The position numbers were made by a program, and so were the translations under genes. The notes beneath the pieces are model-generated. The model did no database searches and had not been told where the DNA came from. It worked only from the letters and a program-made list of their open reading frames with translations. A DNA stretch of 64,000 nucleotides from a virus (lineage: Duplodnaviria > Heunggongvirae > Uroviricota > Caudoviricetes), in IMG/VR virus record IMGVR_UViG_2541047959_000009, one strand, 5' to 3'. Below are positions 20,591 through 27,649 of the stretch, one piece after another. The stretch's first letter is position 1, and each line of letters begins with the position of its first letter.

Positions 20591-21814
20591 ATGCGCAACA
20601 TTATCGAATTAGAACAGATATCGGAAGAACTAAAAAAACATGAACTATTGCAACCCCCATTCATTGCCGAGGGAAAACTAATTTCTGACTTTTCTAAGAG
20701 AGTCGAGTGCTATTTAGAATTAATTGACTCCATTAGAAATAAATATCCTGACAACGAGATAATTAAACAAGTAAAGATTCGCACAAAATCAATAATATAT
20801 TTATCTGATAAAATAATAGAAACTCTTAAGCTATTTTTAATAGGAAATGTTAAAGAAGCTTATAAAAAATTCGATTTGGCAATTACCAAGTCATCAATGC
20901 ATACTCATCTTTATAAGATGACTGTTCCTCTAACTAAATTATGCAACCCACACACCCCTTTATTTCGCGTAAGGAAAAGTGAGTGCATCCTAAAACAAAG
21001 AGAAGAATTATTTCATATACCATTTAAAAATAGACATTTAGTTAGCGCACAAAGATTTTCTGTATCCGGTCTTCCATGTTTATATCTTGGAACATCAATA
21101 TTTGTATGTTGGCAAGAAATGGGAAAACCTGACTTTGATAAACTTTACATATCTTCCTTCATATCCGATAAAGAAAATTCAAATATAAGAATTTTAGATC
21201 TTGGGTACAATTTAACATCTGCACTTCGTACAAAACCGGGAGATCTTTGGTATTCATTCGAACAAGGTTCAGATGATGATTACGATCTAAATAATGATAA
21301 TTTCATGGATCAAATTAATGATAAAATTTCAAAGTTGATTGCATGGCCTTTAGTCCTTGCATGTAACTATACAAAAGATAATGAAAACGCAAGTTTTAAT
21401 AAAGAATACATAATACCAAACCTATTAATGCAATGGATTAGTAGTGACAGAAACAAAAATATATCAGGGATATCGTATCGATCAACAAAGATATTAAACC
21501 AAAAAGATAGCGATATTGGGATTAATGTAATTATCCCCCCAAAAATAGAAAACATAGTTGAAACCAATGATACCCACTGTCCTGTTTTAAAAAAAATATT
21601 TAGAGTTACAAACCCTGTTTCCTGGACTGTGTTTAGTACACTAGAAGCCACCCCCTATCTATACAAAAATAATTTTAATTTTTCGACCTATAATCCCGCA
21701 AAAGGATGGATTGAAGACTTTGATGAATCCCTTGTTGAACATTATGAAAATACCACTTTTAGAAAAGTTGAACTCCTTATTCATCAAATGATGAAGTATG
21801 AATATTTAAAATAA
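20591..21814 (+). CDS. RES-domain-like protein (putative NAD-targeting toxin fold), AT-rich cargo after int
   Basis: 407-aa ORF 4 bp after int stop; segment SAQRFSVSGLPCLYLGTSIFVCWQEMG matches the RES Arg/Ser/Glu signature as I recall. Confidence 0.5.
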   Translation: MRNIIELEQISEELKKHELLQPPFIAEGKLISDFSKRVECYLELIDSIRNKYPDNEIIKQVKIRTKSIIYLSDKIIETLKLFLIGNVKEAYKKFDLAITKSSMHTHLYKMTVPLTKLCNPHTPLFRVRKSECILKQREELFHIPFKNRHLVSAQRFSVSGLPCLYLGTSIFVCWQEMGKPDFDKLYISSFISDKENSNIRILDLGYNLTSALRTKPGDLWYSFEQGSDDDYDLNNDNFMDQINDKISKLIAWPLVLACNYTKDNENASFNKEYIIPNLLMQWISSDRNKNISGISYRSTKILNQKDSDIGINVIIPPKIENIVETNDTHCPVLKKIFRVTNPVSWTVFSTLEATPYLYKNNFNFSTYNPAKGWIEDFDESLVEHYENTTFRKVELLIHQMMKYEYLK

Positions 21815-21930: not shown

Positions 21931-21975
21931 ATGTAGGAATTTCGGACGCGGGTTCAACTCCCGCCAGCTCCACCA
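21931..21975 (+). other. 45-nt copy of the ssrA (tmRNA) 3-prime end: prophage attachment core
   Basis: atgtaggaatttcggacgcgggttcaactcccgccagctccacca matches the remembered E. coli ssrA 3-prime end; upstream is unrelated AT-rich DNA. Confidence 0.7.
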
Positions 21976-22104
21976 ATCATGATTGGACGGTGTAAGGACA
22001 ACACCAACAAAAACAGGAAGTTAGAAGTCTCAGCAGGACACCGACCAGACGGTGAGGAGACATAAAAGGATACGCAAAGGAGCCGCGGCTCCGAAGTGAA
22101 ATGA

Positions 22105-22129
22105 AAGCCCGCTGATGCGGGCTTTTTTG
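22105..22129 (+). terminator. Rho-independent terminator
   Basis: agcccgc tgat gcgggct followed by tttttt. Confidence 0.6.
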
Positions 22130-22360
22130 CTTCTTCTCTTTAGCCTGATTCGACACTCTCAATGCGGCCATAAACAACAACCCACTTTTCTTATACCGTA
22201 GCCTGTCCCCCTCTTCCTGCTTTCTAACCATAACAGATGTGAGCGTTTGCTATGAGCGATATATAGTCATTCGTACCCTCCGATACTAATCATCACAGAA
22301 ATTAATATATTCATTCCTTACTGAAAAGCTATGAAGTAGATATATAGGATTGGGGCGCGT

Positions 22361-22558
22361 ATGGCACTGGACAGTTATGCATCTCCGAATATTATTCCGG
22401 AGCTAAGACAACCGAATGCCGCAGCAGGTAAGATCACGCTAGGGGGGCTGGACAGAATGGCTGTTACGCCCAGTGTGAAGAAAAGAAGGCTAAGTATGGT
22501 AGAATTTCCATACGCACAGACCTTGTTATCCGACTATACAGCCTGGAAGGCACTATGA
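22361..22558 (+). CDS. Small ORF upstream of and overlapping the nuclease-like gene (uncertain)
   Basis: 65-aa ORF with ATGA stop-start overlap with the next gene. Confidence 0.3.
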   Translation: MALDSYASPNIIPELRQPNAAAGKITLGGLDRMAVTPSVKKRRLSMVEFPYAQTLLSDYTAWKAL

Positions 22559-23343
22559 CAAATCTACAACTGGAAGAAAGATTTAGGGCGCTTGAGAAAG
22601 ATTACGATGCGCTCATTTCCACAAAATATACTGCGCAGAACGTTCTCACTCACACTATGGAAACCTATGTTGATTCTGGTAAATATAAAAACTGGATCGC
22701 CAGAGTGAAAAAGTTAATAGAGGACAGCTACGGAAAAGAGTCTGATTATTACAATGACTTCAATACTGTAAACAGCAGGTGGTCTTCTAATTACAATACA
22801 CTGATCAAAAGTTATAAACCGTTGTTTGATGCGGCGAGAGATGATCTTGCGCACTCTGCTGTCAGTACTAATACTCCTCAAGAAGGTTCGCCGCTGAGCC
22901 TCGTACTTAATATTCTTAACAGGTTTCCGACCTTTGTTCGCCAGTTAAAGAGGCGGTACAACGGCCGTGCGCCGCTTGAAGTTAATGATGAGTATGACGT
23001 ACAGGATTTGATTTATGCACTGCTGACGCTTCATTTTAATGATATTAGGGCGGAAGAGTATACCCCCAGCTTTGCGGGCGCGGCCTCAAGACAGGACTTT
23101 CTTTTGAAAAAAGAGAAAATTGTGATAGAGGTGAAGAAAACCCGTGAATCTCTGGGAGCGGGTAAAGTTGGTGGAGAGTTGCTTATTGATATGGCGCGCT
23201 ACCGCGCTCACCAAGACTGCGATACGTTGATCTTGTTTGTATATGACCCGGATTGCTACATAAATAATCCTTTGGGCGTGAAAACCGATCTGGAATCTAA
23301 AGACGCGGAAGGAAAAGTGAAGGTTGTTATTGCGCAGTTCTGA
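22555..23343 (+). CDS. PD-(D/E)xK nuclease-like protein (putative restriction-endonuclease fold)
   Basis: 262-aa ORF; C-terminal EYDVQD...RQDFLLKKEKIVIEVKK fits D...D/E-x-K; helical N-terminal domain. Confidence 0.55.
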   Translation: MTNLQLEERFRALEKDYDALISTKYTAQNVLTHTMETYVDSGKYKNWIARVKKLIEDSYGKESDYYNDFNTVNSRWSSNYNTLIKSYKPLFDAARDDLAHSAVSTNTPQEGSPLSLVLNILNRFPTFVRQLKRRYNGRAPLEVNDEYDVQDLIYALLTLHFNDIRAEEYTPSFAGAASRQDFLLKKEKIVIEVKKTRESLGAGKVGGELLIDMARYRAHQDCDTLILFVYDPDCYINNPLGVKTDLESKDAEGKVKVVIAQF

Positions 23344-23378
23344 CACGCTTAAGTGTCACCTTACAGGATTAGGTTTGC

Positions 23379-23423
23379 GGCCGTGCCAGCAGGACGAGCA
23401 TGAAAAAGGCCGCTGGCACGGCC
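23379..23423. terminator. Hairpin between convergent genes
   Basis: ggccgtgccagc ... gctggcacggcc 12-bp stem. Confidence 0.4.
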
Positions 23424-23430
23424 GGATTTG

Positions 23431-23724
23431 TCATCTTTGCCAGGTCAAATCAAAATCTACGTGAAAATCCGCAGGCTTAAGCTCGCAACTGCCACCACGC
23501 CCAATTAACGACGTTATGTTTACAACGTTTGAACCTGTTGAGATGGCAAGTTGAGTGTCATCTGTAAACGTGATGATTAGCATTTCAGTCTGATGAACCT
23601 GTACTCCAGTTTTCTGAAAACCAATCTGGACAGATTTCACCGTTTTCCCAACCATTTCACGGGCTTGATTGATAGAGTAATTAGCTTCAACTTGTAGGTC
23701 ATTCCTGAACTTGGGTAGTGTCAT
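23431..23724 (-). CDS. Hypothetical 97-aa protein
   Basis: ORF with AAGAGGATG RBS. Confidence 0.45.
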   Translation of the reverse strand: MTLPKFRNDLQVEANYSINQAREMVGKTVKSVQIGFQKTGVQVHQTEMLIITFTDDTQLAISTGSNVVNITSLIGRGGSCELKPADFHVDFDLTWQR

Positions 23725-23934
23725 TTTACATCCTCTTTAGTGAAGTTTTCGCTATTTAAATCAGCAGCATTCCTTTTAAATCACTGGCATGTCAGCAGTG
23801 GATAGTCTGAGTGTAACGTCCAGTGAGGGGAATAAATATTGGTCAGACTTTGCACAAAAGAGCCAACTATCGCGGGCTCTCTCTCATCATGTGCGAAAAT
23901 TGACCACAATATGAAATCCAGTTCCATTCCGAAA

Positions 23935-24759
<825 letters not shown>

Positions 24760-24865
24760 TCAATTGACAACTTATAATCCCTACTAGTTAGCATTATGAT
24801 TTCCAGAGTGAGGAATATAAAAATCTCTGTTTCTGGCACATAACAGCCCTTAAGATCGTAGCTCG

Positions 24866-24915
24866 CCATCATGGGGTGTCGGGGGGCGGAGGTTCAAATC
24901 CTCTCGTGCCGACCA
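24866..24915 (+). other. 3-prime fragment of a tRNA-Pro(UGG)-like gene (att-like remnant), not an intact tRNA
   Basis: catggggtgtcggggggcggaggttcaaatcctctcgtgccgacca matches remembered proM 3-prime half; no complementary 5-prime acceptor strand upstream. Confidence 0.55.
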
Positions 24916-24928
24916 AAAATCCCTTAAG

Positions 24929-24955
24929 AACCAGCCTATTATGGCTGGTTTTTTT
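24929..24955 (+). terminator. Rho-independent terminator after the tRNA-Pro fragment
   Basis: aaccagcc tattat ggctggtt then ttttt. Confidence 0.6.
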
Positions 24956-25156
24956 ATGATTGTTTTTTATGCGGAGAAATACCGGGGAATAATTGGGGTA
25001 AAACACCTTTAGGCTATTCACTTAGCCTACCACCATCAAAATCTTTCCGAATGTATCCATCTCTTTTTTCTTATGCAGCTAAAACGAAGTCTTGATACTG
25101 TTTATTTACACAGATAAGAATAATACTGTCTACAAACGCAGTACAAAAGAAGTGTT

Positions 25157-25335
25157 ATGCGTATTGAGATCTCCATAGCCAAAGACAAAATGACCAAATG
25201 CCAAACGGCGCTGTGGACGCGTTAAAGGAAGAATTAACCCAACACATTGGCAAGCGTTATGACGATGTGGAGATGATCGTAAAAGCCACCAGCAACGATA
25301 GTTTTTCAGTTAGACATACTGCAGATAAAGATTGA
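25157..25335 (+). pseudogene. dinI-like gene disrupted by a frameshift
   Basis: [11 protein letters not shown]... stops after 22 codons; the DinI-like remainder ...[37 protein letters not shown] is in another frame. Confidence 0.45.
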
Positions 25336-25759
25336 GCTAAAACTTTCGTTCAGGAAACTCTGAATGATACCTGAGAGTCTACTGAAGAGTTGTTTGTTCA
25401 CTAGTTAGCACGTAGGAAATCATTCAATACTCGCACTATCGGAAGTTCACCAGCCAGTCGTAGCACGTCCTTGCAAACGACGTGCCTACGGTTTCAATCA
25501 CCTCTCACCATCAATTCTATCAATAATAATTAAACAGCGCCTAGACAAAATAAATAACAACAAGTCAACAACCTCGACAGGATGCCGATGGGATGATGAA
25601 GAGATAAGAAAGAATAACCAGTAAAGCCCTAAAACGTCAGCGTTCAGACGCGTTTTTTACTTAATCGGTAACAAATACGTTGTATCATAGCAAAATAAAA
25701 TGATTGTTCTAAATCAGATTAACTCCTCACTTTTGTACAATGTCGCTTACAGGTATACC

Positions 25760-27649
25760 ATGAAATCCGAGACGCTAACTGTCCAACAACTTTTTCAAGA
25801 CCGCCGACAATACTGTGTTCCATTCTATCAACGTGCCTATGTATGGACTCAGCAAGACCAGTGGTCAGCTCTACTGGAGGATATCCTAGAGAAAGTACAA
25901 TCCCGGCTCTCGGGTACAAAACCAACTCCCCATTTCCTTGGTGCGGTTGTACTGGAACCTCAATCAAAAAAAGGATTATTAGGTGTAGATTCCATACATA
26001 TTATTGATGGTCAGCAACGATTGACCACTCTTCAATATGTTCTGGCATCCATCCGATTAGCATTACGTGCTACGGATCTTTCCAGCTTAGAGGCTCTCAT
26101 TTCGCCTTGCCTGAAAAACTCAAACGAAGACACAATGCGAAATAAAGAAGTAGAACGCTTCAAACTGTGGCCAACTTTTCGGGATCAAACTCATTTTATT
26201 CAAAGTTTTAATGTTGAAAATATTGACGATCTCCGGGACGTATTCTCTGATAGTTTCACGCAGCATGGTACGTTGCGTAAGCATTTTAATCACCCGCCAT
26301 CACTAGAAGCATTATGTTTTTTTACTGAAGCCTTTATAAAATGGATTAAAATAGAAAACCACTCACCACAAGAAAATGCTGTAGCTCTAATTGAGGCTGT
26401 CTTAACAGATCTGAAACTGGTAAGCATATTTCTCGAAGCTGAAGATGATGCCCAAATAATTTTTGAAACATTAAATGGGCGAGGGGCGGAACTTCATGCT
26501 ACGGATCTTATTCGCAACTATATCTTTATGTGCGCTGAGCATGAAAATATTAATGCTATTGAATTATATGAAAATGAGTGGAAGAGCTTTGAAGATAAAT
26601 ACTGGTCGGAAAAACAACGCCGTGGACGTATTAATAAACCACGCATGGAGTGGCTAGTACATGCGACATTGCAATCAGAAAGGCAACGTGAAATTGATCT
26701 GTCTCGCCTTTACAATGAGTATCGTGATTATGTAAGTAAGGACTTGTCTTCACAACGAGCAGATCTGCAAGTAAAGCGCCTCAAACAATATGCATCACAA
26801 TATAAAGAATTGGTTGATGGTTTTGGCACAACCCCCATCTCACACTTTGGATATCGCATCGCAGACTATGATGTGACGACACTTTATCCGCTTGCTTTGT
26901 TCATTTCGATAGCTAACATCGCTGATGATGAGAAAGCAGCCATGTATAATGATCTTGTCTCCTACGTAGTACGAAGAGCCGTATGTGGCCTGACGCCAAA
27001 GAATTACAACAATGTATTTATGAATGTATTGCGGCACTTGGCTAAAACGGAAATTTCCAGTGTTGAGTTACGTAATATCCTCAATAACTTAAATGGCGAA
27101 GCCTCACGTTGGCCTGGTGACTCAGAATTTCTCAACGCTTGCATCAATGCTCCACTTTATCCTGGCAGGCTCGACGCACCGAAAATGCGCTCAATGTTAA
27201 CGGAACTTGAAAGAGAACTTTGTCGCCAAGTAAAGACAGAAAAGCCTGATGTTCCAAATCTTTCTAATCTCGATATCGATCATCTTATGCCTCAAAGTTG
27301 GTATTCCTGTTGGCCTCTCGAAAATGGTCGTATGGTGACAAATTCAGATGCTACGGTATTGAACCAAATTGTTCTGTCTGGAACCGATCTTACCCCTGAA
27401 CAGCTACTGGTAAGGAAACGGCAACAAGCGATATCTACTTTGGGAAATCTAACTTTGCTTAACCTTAGCGTAAACCGTTCTGTTCAGAATGCTGTATTTC
27501 TGAAAAAACGTGATGCTCTCATCGTCCACACCAATCTACGACTGAACATTCCACTTATAGTTAAGGATAAATGGGATGAGGATGAAATCCTGGAGCGGGG
27601 TAAAAAGTTGGGGGAAATTGCATTGAAAGTATGGCCAAAACACGATTAA
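25760..27649 (+). CDS. GmrSD-family type IV restriction endonuclease-like protein (DUF262 + DUF1524)
   Basis: N-terminal QRAYVW and IIDGQQRLTTL; C-terminal DIDHLMPQS...GNLTLLN His-Me finger; ORF opens at 25700 but AGGT RBS favours ATG 25760. Confidence 0.75.
   Translation: MKSETLTVQQLFQDRRQYCVPFYQRAYVWTQQDQWSALLEDILEKVQSRLSGTKPTPHFLGAVVLEPQSKKGLLGVDSIHIIDGQQRLTTLQYVLASIRLALRATDLSSLEALISPCLKNSNEDTMRNKEVERFKLWPTFRDQTHFIQSFNVENIDDLRDVFSDSFTQHGTLRKHFNHPPSLEALCFFTEAFIKWIKIENHSPQENAVALIEAVLTDLKLVSIFLEAEDDAQIIFETLNGRGAELHATDLIRNYIFMCAEHENINAIELYENEWKSFEDKYWSEKQRRGRINKPRMEWLVHATLQSERQREIDLSRLYNEYRDYVSKDLSSQRADLQVKRLKQYASQYKELVDGFGTTPISHFGYRIADYDVTTLYPLALFISIANIADDEKAAMYNDLVSYVVRRAVCGLTPKNYNNVFMNVLRHLAKTEISSVELRNILNNLNGEASRWPGDSEFLNACINAPLYPGRLDAPKMRSMLTELERELCRQVKTEKPDVPNLSNLDIDHLMPQSWYSCWPLENGRMVTNSDATVLNQIVLSGTDLTPEQLLVRKRQQAISTLGNLTLLNLSVNRSVQNAVFLKKRDALIVHTNLRLNIPLIVKDKWDEDEILERGKKLGEIALKVWPKHD

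What the first reader, a model, noticed from the sequence alone, without database searches (positions are those of the whole stretch)
22361..23343. PD-(D/E)xK nuclease-like gene with a translationally coupled small upstream ORF
The 262-aa protein has a helical N-terminal domain and a C-terminal D...D...ExK nuclease core. A 65-aa ORF overlaps its start by ATGA. The locus lies just outside the prophage-1 att core, flanked by terminators, among other nuclease genes. I could not assign it to a named defence family.
Basis: partly seen in the sequence, partly recalled or inferred. Interest (0 to 1): 0.65.

Follow-up and report, generated by a model that had tools for sequence, protein, structure and literature searches.

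The report
Stand-alone defence-type nuclease; upstream ORF spurious
This E. coli gene encodes a lone DNA-cutting enzyme whose catalytic domain is otherwise known as the killing module of two bacterial anti-virus systems; it sits among defence genes between two prophages, and the small "partner" ORF in front of it is only its promoter and leader read as protein.

Summary
Both ORFs exist as described (65 aa at 22361-22558, 262 aa at 22555-23343, ATGA overlap). The 262-aa protein is a real PD-(D/E)xK nuclease. Its C-terminal domain matches Pfam PF18742 REase_DpnII-MboI (E 9.5e-49), with D181/E192/K194 invariant in 78 of 78 relatives, and it follows a helical N-domain. PF18742 is the effector of long-B Argonaute BPAN systems (bAgaN) and of some Detocs variants. 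Here it stands alone, with no conserved neighbour in 80 loci from many phyla.

The 65-aa ORF is not a gene. Its ATG is ACG in the two closest relatives, its body is deleted in Morganella, and its frame is open for 0-45 codons in 12 relatives. The conserved DNA beneath it is an extended -10 (TGGTAGAAT), a leader and the ribosome-binding site.

A different small gene, the convergent 97-aa ORF (23431-23724), is a real conserved family. It is loosely linked to the nuclease but dispensable.

The gene is AT-rich and patchy (260 of 5,426 E. coli genomes, on chromosomes and plasmids). It lies about 580 bp past the ssrA att core, next to PD-T4-3 and GmrSD.

Best reading: an uncharacterised single-protein defence nuclease, held inactive by its fast-evolving N-domain until triggered. 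No experiment exists. Moderate interest; a new variant of a known kind.

The parts
22555..23343 (+). 262-aa nuclease gene: helical N-domain (aa 1-132, 22555-22950) plus PF18742 PD-(D/E)xK domain (aa ~117-261). Catalytic codons: D181 23095-23097, E192 23128-23130, K194 23134-23136.
   Evidence: ORF. Pfam PF18742 9.5e-49, 165 bits against a cut-off of 27. PADLOC Aga_Helical-REase 1e-26, aa 100-258 only. PDB EcbAgaN 4.6e-6, core only. AF2 pLDDT 82. Catalytic residues invariant in 78/78.
22497..22505 (+). Inferred extended -10 promoter element TGgTAGAAT of the nuclease gene. It lies inside the 65-aa ORF.
   Evidence: Nearly invariant in 13 Enterobacterales upstream regions that are otherwise unrelated; coordinates. 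Promoter function is inferred, not shown. The simple two-hexamer scan did not list it because it has no -35 match.
22506..22554 (+). Leader with ribosome-binding site GGAAGG (22545-22550).
   Evidence: Conserved as DNA, read in different frames in different relatives. No conserved secondary structure.
22361..22558 (+). 65-aa ORF: judged not to be a gene. It is a lineage-specific open frame over the promoter and leader.
   Evidence: ATG is ACG in Serratia and Morganella; deletion in Morganella; frame open 0-45 codons elsewhere. Only an E. coli cluster exists. No family hits.
23408..23425 (.). Hairpin between the convergent nuclease and 97-aa genes (terminator-like on both strands).
23431..23724 (-). 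97-aa conserved small protein, an optional companion of the nuclease. Function unknown.
   Evidence: Family of constant length, 57-99% identity, 33 invariant columns. Beside a nuclease copy or its remnant in 8 of 10 contexts, in three arrangements. Pseudogene in Morganella. No Pfam or PDB match. AF2 pLDDT 58.
22275..23865 (.). Horizontally shared module (89% nt identity with Serratia marcescens), 43.8% GC.
   Evidence: blastn boundaries; GC.
21931..21975 (+). Last 45 nt of ssrA: att core of the P2-like prophage. The native ssrA-downstream DNA and terminator follow, to 22127.
   Evidence: Rfam tmRNA 3' part; sequence; this stretch matches beside ssrA in all 5,426 E. coli genomes.

Best explanation
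The 262-aa gene is a self-contained, horizontally mobile defence (conflict) nuclease.

Shown:
- It is a two-domain protein with an intact PD-(D/E)xK active site of Pfam family PF18742.
- It travels with its own promoter and leader as a roughly 0.9-1.6 kb cassette among chromosomes, prophage edges, ICEs and plasmids.
- It has no obligatory partner gene.

Inferred mechanism, by analogy with the only characterised relative (EcbAgaN): the protein is made constitutively but kept inactive, probably as a dimer whose helical N-domain restrains the C-terminal DNase. A phage- or plasmid-derived cue acting on the fast-evolving N-domain releases or oligomerises the nuclease domains. These then degrade DNA without sequence specificity and stop the infection (abortive infection or dormancy). 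The 97-aa protein, where present, would be a lineage-specific modulator. The 65-aa upstream ORF plays no part.
For: Domain:
- PF18742 at 165 bits. D181/E192/K194 plus more than 25 other residues are invariant across phyla.
- Structural neighbours are Can2, Nt.BspD6I, BstEII and a CdiA-CT PD-(D/E)xK toxin, overlapping the set reported for EcbAgaN.
- PF18742 is an immune effector in BPAN (PADLOC Aga_Helical-REase 1e-26; PDB EcbAgaN) and in Detocs variants.

Autoinhibition analogy:
- The EcbAgaN C-domain alone is toxic, the full-length protein is not, and the N-domain holds an autoinhibited dimer.
- EcbAgaN is a Mn-dependent non-specific DNase.
- Its dimer-interface helix ENEYHVQNLLY aligns with the invariant DEYDVQD helix here.

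Sensor-like N-domain:
- 15.6% median identity, against 55.1% for the C-domain.

Stand-alone:
- No conserved neighbour among 285 flanking ORFs of 80 loci.
- No recurrent methyltransferase.

Mobile and accessory:
- 260 of 5,426 E. coli genomes, 146 chromosomal and 166 plasmid places, identity bimodal; 43.8% GC.
- Contexts include integrases, Abi_C, Abi family genes, a Lit-like Peptidase_U49, DUF4145, Gabija/Old, PD-T4-3 and GmrSD.
Against: - There is no experimental evidence for any member, and no paper mentions the protein.
- Defence association outside Enterobacterales is modest. Most of the 149 immediate neighbours are ordinary or unknown genes.
- The AF2 pTM of 0.55 leaves the domain arrangement uncertain.
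- No hit in 50,697 phage genomes, and no trigger is known.
Confidence: 0.5

Rival explanations
1. It is a solitary restriction-type endonuclease. Either it is modification-dependent (type IV-like, needing no methylase), or it is an orphan type II-like enzyme whose host is protected by a housekeeping methylase such as Dam. In both cases it attacks incoming DNA directly rather than killing the cell.
For: - The Pfam family is named after DpnII/MboI.
- The top Foldseek hit is the type II enzyme BstEII (E 3.8e-3).
- A solitary nuclease without a methylase is the type IV pattern, and a type IV GmrSD lies 2.4 kb away.
- Constitutive expression without an antidote is tolerated in many hosts.
Against: - No match to the true DpnII Pfam family at E up to 0.1.
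- The N-domain is a helical bundle with no resemblance to known modified-base readers.
- Its 16% identity across the family is hard to reconcile with a conserved DNA-recognition module.
- The characterised relative cuts ssDNA, dsDNA and Dam-methylated E. coli DNA non-specifically.
- The family occurs in phyla with different methylation habits and has no recurrent adjacent methylase.
Confidence: 0.2
2. It is the toxin of a toxin-antidote (addiction) pair that stabilises mobile elements, with the 97-aa protein as antidote.
For: - The 97-aa gene is beside the nuclease or its remnant in 8 of 10 contexts, in three different arrangements, and the two co-diverge (91/94, 87/86, 85/84, 57/70, 61/57 % identity).
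- Frequent plasmid carriage.
- The relative's nuclease domain is toxic on its own.
Against: - Only 1 of 80 unbiased nuclease loci has the 97-aa gene.
- It is frameshifted and stop-riddled in Morganella, where the nuclease is intact.
- The plasmid, Pantoea, Pectobacterium and Salmonella copies lack it.
- The 97-aa gene also occurs without the nuclease.
- Convergent orientation is atypical for type II TA operons.
Confidence: 0.1
3. It has a mobile-element housekeeping role (recombination, resolution or plasmid competition) rather than immunity.
For: Next to a resolvase on IncX1 plasmids and next to integrases in several islands. PD-(D/E)xK enzymes include resolvases.
Against: No fixed association with any one element type or recombinase. 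It occurs beside ordinary chromosomal genes too. The domain family is known from immune effectors.
Confidence: 0.08
4. One reading: a two-gene operon in which a 65-aa protein is translationally coupled to the nuclease (for example as antitoxin or regulator).
For: The ORF and the ATGA overlap exist in this E. coli lineage. Some annotations call it a hypothetical protein.
Against: - The start codon is lost in the closest relatives, there is a deletion in Morganella, and the frame is broken elsewhere.
- The conserved bases are a -10 element, leader and SD.
- If transcription starts downstream of the inferred -10 at 22500-22505, most of the ORF is not on the nuclease mRNA.
- No family hits.
Confidence: 0.02

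Closest known systems
bAgaN, the nuclease of long-B prokaryotic Argonaute BPAN systems (EcbAgaN, PDB 23wq)
   Same: Same nuclease sub-family (PADLOC Aga_Helical-REase 1e-26; PDB profile hit 4.6e-6). Same D-x(10)-E-V-K motif and spacing (D298/E309/K311 against D181/E192/K194). Same two-domain plan: an N-terminal helical part followed by a C-terminal REase. The conserved dimer-interface helix aligns.
   Different: No Argonaute gene is nearby. The protein is 262 aa rather than 390. The N-domains are not detectably homologous. Activation by pAgo recruitment cannot apply, so whatever triggers this protein is unknown.
Detocs variants with an REase (PF18742) effector
   Same: Same Pfam effector domain, used as an immune output (bioRxiv 10.1101/2023.01.24.525353, Fig. 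S8 legend).
   Different: No receiver domain, no DtcA/DtcB partners, and no PADLOC Detocs hit.
GAPS1 (single-protein PD-(D/E)xK defence from Vibrio GMT islands)
   Same: One protein with a C-terminal PD-(D/E)xK domain and an N-terminal presumed sensor. Widespread and horizontally moved. Reported to be capsid-triggered and to cause dormancy.
   Different: The GAPS1 active site is D313...K328, so the protein is larger and the motif spacing is 15 rather than 13. Its homologues are concentrated in K. pneumoniae. Sequence relatedness could not be tested here, and our accession is absent from the supplementary files held as text.
Shedu (SduA, DUF4263)
   Same: Single-gene defence in which a variable N-domain restrains a C-terminal PD-(D/E)xK nuclease (from my own knowledge of the published system).
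   Different: Different Pfam family. No DUF4263 or PADLOC Shedu hit.
Type II enzymes DpnII/MboI
   Same: The Pfam family is named after them, and they share the REase fold.
   Different: No hit to the DpnII Pfam family, no adjacent methyltransferase, and no evidence of GATC specificity.

Membership tests
Pfam PF18742 REase_DpnII-MboI domain family | HMM score above the gathering threshold | tested here: met
   165.3 bits against a cut-off of 27, aa 117-261 covering profile positions 3-149 of 150.
Pfam PF18742 REase_DpnII-MboI domain family | Intact PD-(D/E)xK catalytic residues | tested here: met
   D181, E192 and K194 are invariant in 31/31 and 78/78 sequences and align to EcbAgaN D298/E309/K311.
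BPAN (long-B pAgo plus bAgaN) | Adjacent long-B Argonaute gene | tested here: not met
   The neighbours are the 407-aa phrog_7835 protein, the 97-aa protein, PD-T4-3 and GmrSD; there is no Ago hit. No Argonaute appeared among the most frequent families of the 149 flanking ORFs of 80 loci (only the top 25 families were listed).
BPAN (long-B pAgo plus bAgaN) | bAgaN-type N-terminal domain that docks on pAgo | tested here: not met
   The PADLOC and PDB matches cover only aa 100-258 and 141-232.
Detocs | Three-gene DtcABC system, with the effector fused to a receiver domain | tested here: not met
   No receiver domain and no Detocs hit in Pfam or PADLOC.
Shedu | DUF4263 nuclease domain | tested here: not met
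   No Pfam or PADLOC match.
GAPS1 | Sequence homology to WP_005477165.1 | not testable with these tools
   The sequence was not obtainable. The reported motif positions D313/K328 differ in spacing and imply a longer protein. Our accession is not in the supplementary files held as text.
Type II restriction-modification (DpnII/MboI) | Cognate adjacent methyltransferase and DpnII-family REase | tested here: not met
   No MTase next to the gene here or recurrently in 80 loci. No hit to any other REase Pfam family at E up to 0.1.
Type IV (modification-dependent) restriction | Modified-DNA reader domain fused to the nuclease | tested here: inconclusive
Type II toxin-antitoxin operon | Conserved, co-transcribed small antidote gene | tested here: not met
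   The 65-aa ORF is not conserved. The 97-aa gene is convergent, optional, and a pseudogene in Morganella.
Anti-phage defence system (generic) | Protection phenotype that depends on the active site | not testable with these tools
   Needs experiment.

The most novel reading that the evidence does not exclude
The ~260-aa 'helical N-domain + PF18742' proteins are a large, cross-phylum, so far unnamed family of single-protein immune nucleases. They sense invaders through a rapidly diversifying N-domain. In some Enterobacterales they have recruited a 97-aa protein as a modulator. This would be a free-living version of the effector that Argonaute and Detocs systems use.
Probability: 0.4. Interest if true: 0.6.

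Novelty: new variant of a known kind. Interest (0 to 1): 0.42.

Why it matters
If this is confirmed as a defence gene, three things follow.
- It would add a very compact (about 0.9 kb, one gene with its own promoter) immune nuclease to the catalogue. It is present in about 5% of complete E. coli genomes, on many conjugative plasmids, and in many phyla.
- It would show that the PF18742 effector of BPAN and Detocs also works autonomously. That raises the question of what its N-domain senses.
- It would give a clean system for studying autoinhibition of PD-(D/E)xK effectors.

There are also practical corrections. Hundreds of database entries call this protein 'malate dehydrogenase', and the 65-aa 'hypothetical protein' annotated in some E. 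coli records is most likely not a gene.

Tried and rejected
- Conserved leader structure or riboswitch in the 5' region: RNAalifold predicted no pairs, and Rfam found nothing in the locus.
- N-domain as a shared sensor module fused to other effectors: the word-indexed search returned only fragments. Exhaustive phmmer over 1.84 billion representatives gave 17 hits, all from the same family or fragments.
- Viral homologues: tblastn against 50,697 phage genomes gave none, and BFVD had nothing at E up to 0.001. PHROGs phrog_29450 matches the C-domain only.
- The Dam-protected orphan DpnII-like idea: no support from neighbours or from family taxonomy.
- A full tmRNA gene at 21.6-21.98 kb: only the 3' 45 nt is present.
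- Literature: searches for 'AgaN' and 'bAgaN' were unproductive. The accession and 'DpnII-MboI' gave nothing relevant.
- The 97-aa protein has no Pfam or PDB match and only a low-confidence model.

Full report
**Observation**

The window is from a phylogroup B2-type E. coli; it is 100% identical to S88, APEC O1, IHE3034 and ATCC 11775. Both ORFs exist exactly as described: a 65-aa ORF at 22361-22558 and a 262-aa ORF at 22555-23343, sharing ATGA. Terminator-like hairpins lie at 22103-22126 and 23408-23425.

The left flank is a P2-like prophage that ends with cI, int and a 407-aa gene. Its att core is the last 45 nt of ssrA, at 21931-21975. The native ssrA-downstream DNA follows to 22127, and this stretch is found next to ssrA in all 5,426 complete E. 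coli genomes.

To the right lie a convergent 97-aa ORF, PD-T4-3 (GIY-YIG; PADLOC 9.9e-136), a DinI pseudogene, a tRNA-Pro-like att scar (about 24858-24957), GmrSD (type IV), and then a second prophage.

**The 262-aa protein**

- Residues 117-261 match Pfam PF18742 REase_DpnII-MboI at 9.5e-49 (165 bits against a cut-off of 27).
- Three PADLOC 'Aga_Helical-REase' models of Argonaute-associated nucleases match over aa 100-258 (best 1e-26).
- A profile of 31 homologues finds a single solved relative, EcbAgaN, over the nuclease core (4.6e-6).
- D181, E192 and K194 (IEVKK) align with EcbAgaN D298/E309/K311. They are invariant in 78 of 78 family members from many phyla, together with more than 25 other C-domain residues.
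- The AlphaFold model (pLDDT 82) shows a helical N-domain with a small hairpin (aa 1-132) and an alpha/beta REase domain.
- Foldseek neighbours are BstEII, a CdiA-CT PD-(D/E)xK toxin, Can2 and Nt.BspD6I. This overlaps the set reported for EcbAgaN.

**The 65-aa ORF is not a gene**

- Upstream DNA was aligned for 13 Enterobacterales copies. The E. coli ATG at 22361 reads ACG in Serratia (nuclease 91% identical) and Morganella (89%).
- Morganella has also deleted most of the ORF body (window 22374-22447).
- The corresponding frame is open for only 0-45 codons in the 12 relatives.
- No gene caller predicts such an ORF beside any homologue.
- Across 80 loci there is no recurrent upstream coupled ORF.
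- The peptide exists only as a single E. coli cluster at 90% identity or more.
- What is conserved under its 3' third is TGGTAGAAT (22497-22505, an extended -10), a leader of about 45 nt without conserved structure, and the GGAAGG ribosome-binding site (22545-22550).
- The same DNA is in frame with the nuclease in Pantoea and in the +1 frame in E. coli. That is typical of non-coding DNA.
- The ATGA overlap is automatic, because ATG followed by A makes a +1-frame TGA. It is absent in K. pneumoniae, which reads ATAATG.

**A different small gene is linked**

The convergent 97-aa ORF (23431-23724) belongs to a real family of constant length. Identity falls to 57%, and 33 columns are invariant. Its contexts are:

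| Arrangement relative to the nuclease | Where |
|---|---|
| Convergent and adjacent | E. coli, Serratia, Enterobacter kpr-6, Kosakonia |
| Divergent and adjacent | Erwinia |
| Convergent, 2.4 kb away | Citrobacter farmeri |
| Beside a 25-aa nuclease remnant | a Salmonella island |
| Pseudogene, with the nuclease intact | Morganella |
| Without any nuclease | a Pantoea ananatis plasmid and a Pantoea ICE |

Nuclease and 97-aa identities fall together (91/94, 87/86, 85/84, 57/70, 61/57 %). However, only 1 of 80 unbiased nuclease loci has the 97-aa gene. It is therefore an optional companion, not an obligatory antidote. It has no Pfam or PDB match, and its model is poor.

**Distribution**

- More than 2,400 homologues were found, and at least 568 loci in species-representative genomes. 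These cover Proteobacteria, Bacteroidota, Cyanobacteria, Firmicutes, Planctomycetota and an archaeon, nearly all at 250-265 aa.
- Among 285 flanking ORFs of 80 loci, the largest cluster of related neighbours has 3 members. There is no recurrent methyltransferase or any other partner.
- In Enterobacterales the contexts are mobile or defence-like: integrases, an ICE, Abi_C, 'Abi family' genes, a Lit-like U49 peptidase, DUF4145, and IncX1/IncF plasmids.
- In E. coli, 260 of 5,426 genomes carry a copy (146 chromosomal and 166 plasmid places). Identity is bimodal, either at least 99% or 60-80%.
- The B2 arrangement seen here occurs in about 106 genomes.
- The module shared with Serratia is 22275-23865. 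The minimal unit shared with Pantoea and Pectobacterium starts at 22444-22448, just upstream of the promoter. The module has 43.8% GC, against 49.2% for the window.

**Mechanism**

PF18742 is a recognised immune effector in two systems:
- In BPAN it is a Mn-dependent, non-specific ss/dsDNase. Its isolated C-domain is toxic, while the full-length protein is an autoinhibited dimer restrained by its N-domain. It becomes active as an octamer on pAgo recruitment.
- It is also listed as an alternative effector of Detocs.

In the present family the C-domain is very conserved (median 55% identity) while the first 110 residues have drifted to about 16%. The N-domain has only 17 detectable relatives among 1.84 billion representative proteins, all from the same family or fragments. 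A conserved effector joined to a fast-evolving N-domain, constitutive-looking expression without an antidote, and patchy mobile carriage together fit a single-protein sensor-effector nuclease best.

The active site, the family assignment, the autonomy and the mobility are shown. Autoinhibition, trigger sensing, non-specific DNA degradation and a defence phenotype are inferred.

**Rivals**

- A solitary restriction-type enzyme, either type IV-like or protected by a host methylase, is the main alternative (about 0.2).
- A toxin-antidote pair with the 97-aa protein (about 0.1).
- An MGE housekeeping role (below 0.1).

**Comparison and novelty**

The protein is a member of the PF18742 domain family. 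It is not a member of BPAN (no Argonaute, unrelated N-domain), Detocs, Shedu, type II R-M or a TA operon. Its relation to GAPS1, a single-protein PD-(D/E)xK defence, could not be tested. The reported motif spacing and size differ, and our accession does not appear in the supplementary files of that paper held as text. No paper mentions the protein.

I rate it a new variant of a known kind: a free-standing form of a known immune nuclease domain, uncharacterised and often mislabelled 'malate dehydrogenase'. Interest is moderate.

Noticed in passing
window 11127-12536 (-): The cargo gene in the P2-like prophage hotspot between the portal/terminase genes and the DinI-like gene is PD-T7-1 (PADLOC 1.3e-196; also phrog_8571).
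   Followed up: partly
window 20591-21814 (+): A 407-aa gene starts 4 nt after the integrase stop and is still inside the prophage, before the att core. It is very AT-rich (30.6% GC). It matches phrog_7835 (4.8e-180) but has no Pfam, NCBIfam or PADLOC match. It is an unknown prophage moron and a possible defence candidate.
   Followed up: partly
window 21931-22127: The last 45 nt of ssrA (the prophage att core) plus the native ssrA-downstream terminator. ARAGORN reports no tmRNA, and Rfam sees it only when the search stretch truncates the model.
   Followed up: yes
window ~24858-24957 and 25198-25335: A tRNA-Pro-like fragment (86-88% identical to E. coli tRNA-Pro loci) and a DinI-like pseudogene. 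In strain VTB97022v the DNA to the right (GmrSD) sits next to tRNA-Pro. The region between the two prophages is therefore a mosaic of att scars from different elements.
   Followed up: partly
window 23431-23724 (-): The 97-aa ORF belongs to a conserved Enterobacterales protein family of unknown function. It is loosely but repeatedly linked to the nuclease in three gene arrangements, and it is also found alone on a Pantoea plasmid (next to a Dam-like methylase) and in an ICE.
   Followed up: yes
window 22275-22373 and 22448-22473: About 100 nt of non-coding DNA upstream of the promoter is conserved with Serratia, Morganella and Enterobacter. An imperfect inverted repeat (CTGGAC...CCCAG) sits at the left edge of the minimal shared module. 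There is no Rfam match and the function is unknown.
   Followed up: partly
homologues P0004-P0103: Many NCBI and UniRef entries for this nuclease family are named 'malate dehydrogenase', an evident propagated misannotation.
   Followed up: no
E. coli F-type plasmids, e.g. NC_009837.1 139571-140205: Truncated copies (about 80% of the gene) and short N-terminal remnants (aa 1-70, 57% identity) of a paralogue are scattered over a great many large E. coli plasmids, including pAPEC-O1-ColBM in a strain that also has the chromosomal copy.
   Followed up: no
window 23935-24741 (-) and 25700-27649 (+): PD-T4-3 (GIY-YIG; PADLOC 9.9e-136) and a GmrSD-type type IV restriction enzyme (PADLOC mREase_IV, E = 0). 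The nuclease therefore sits in a bona fide defence cluster.
   Followed up: yes
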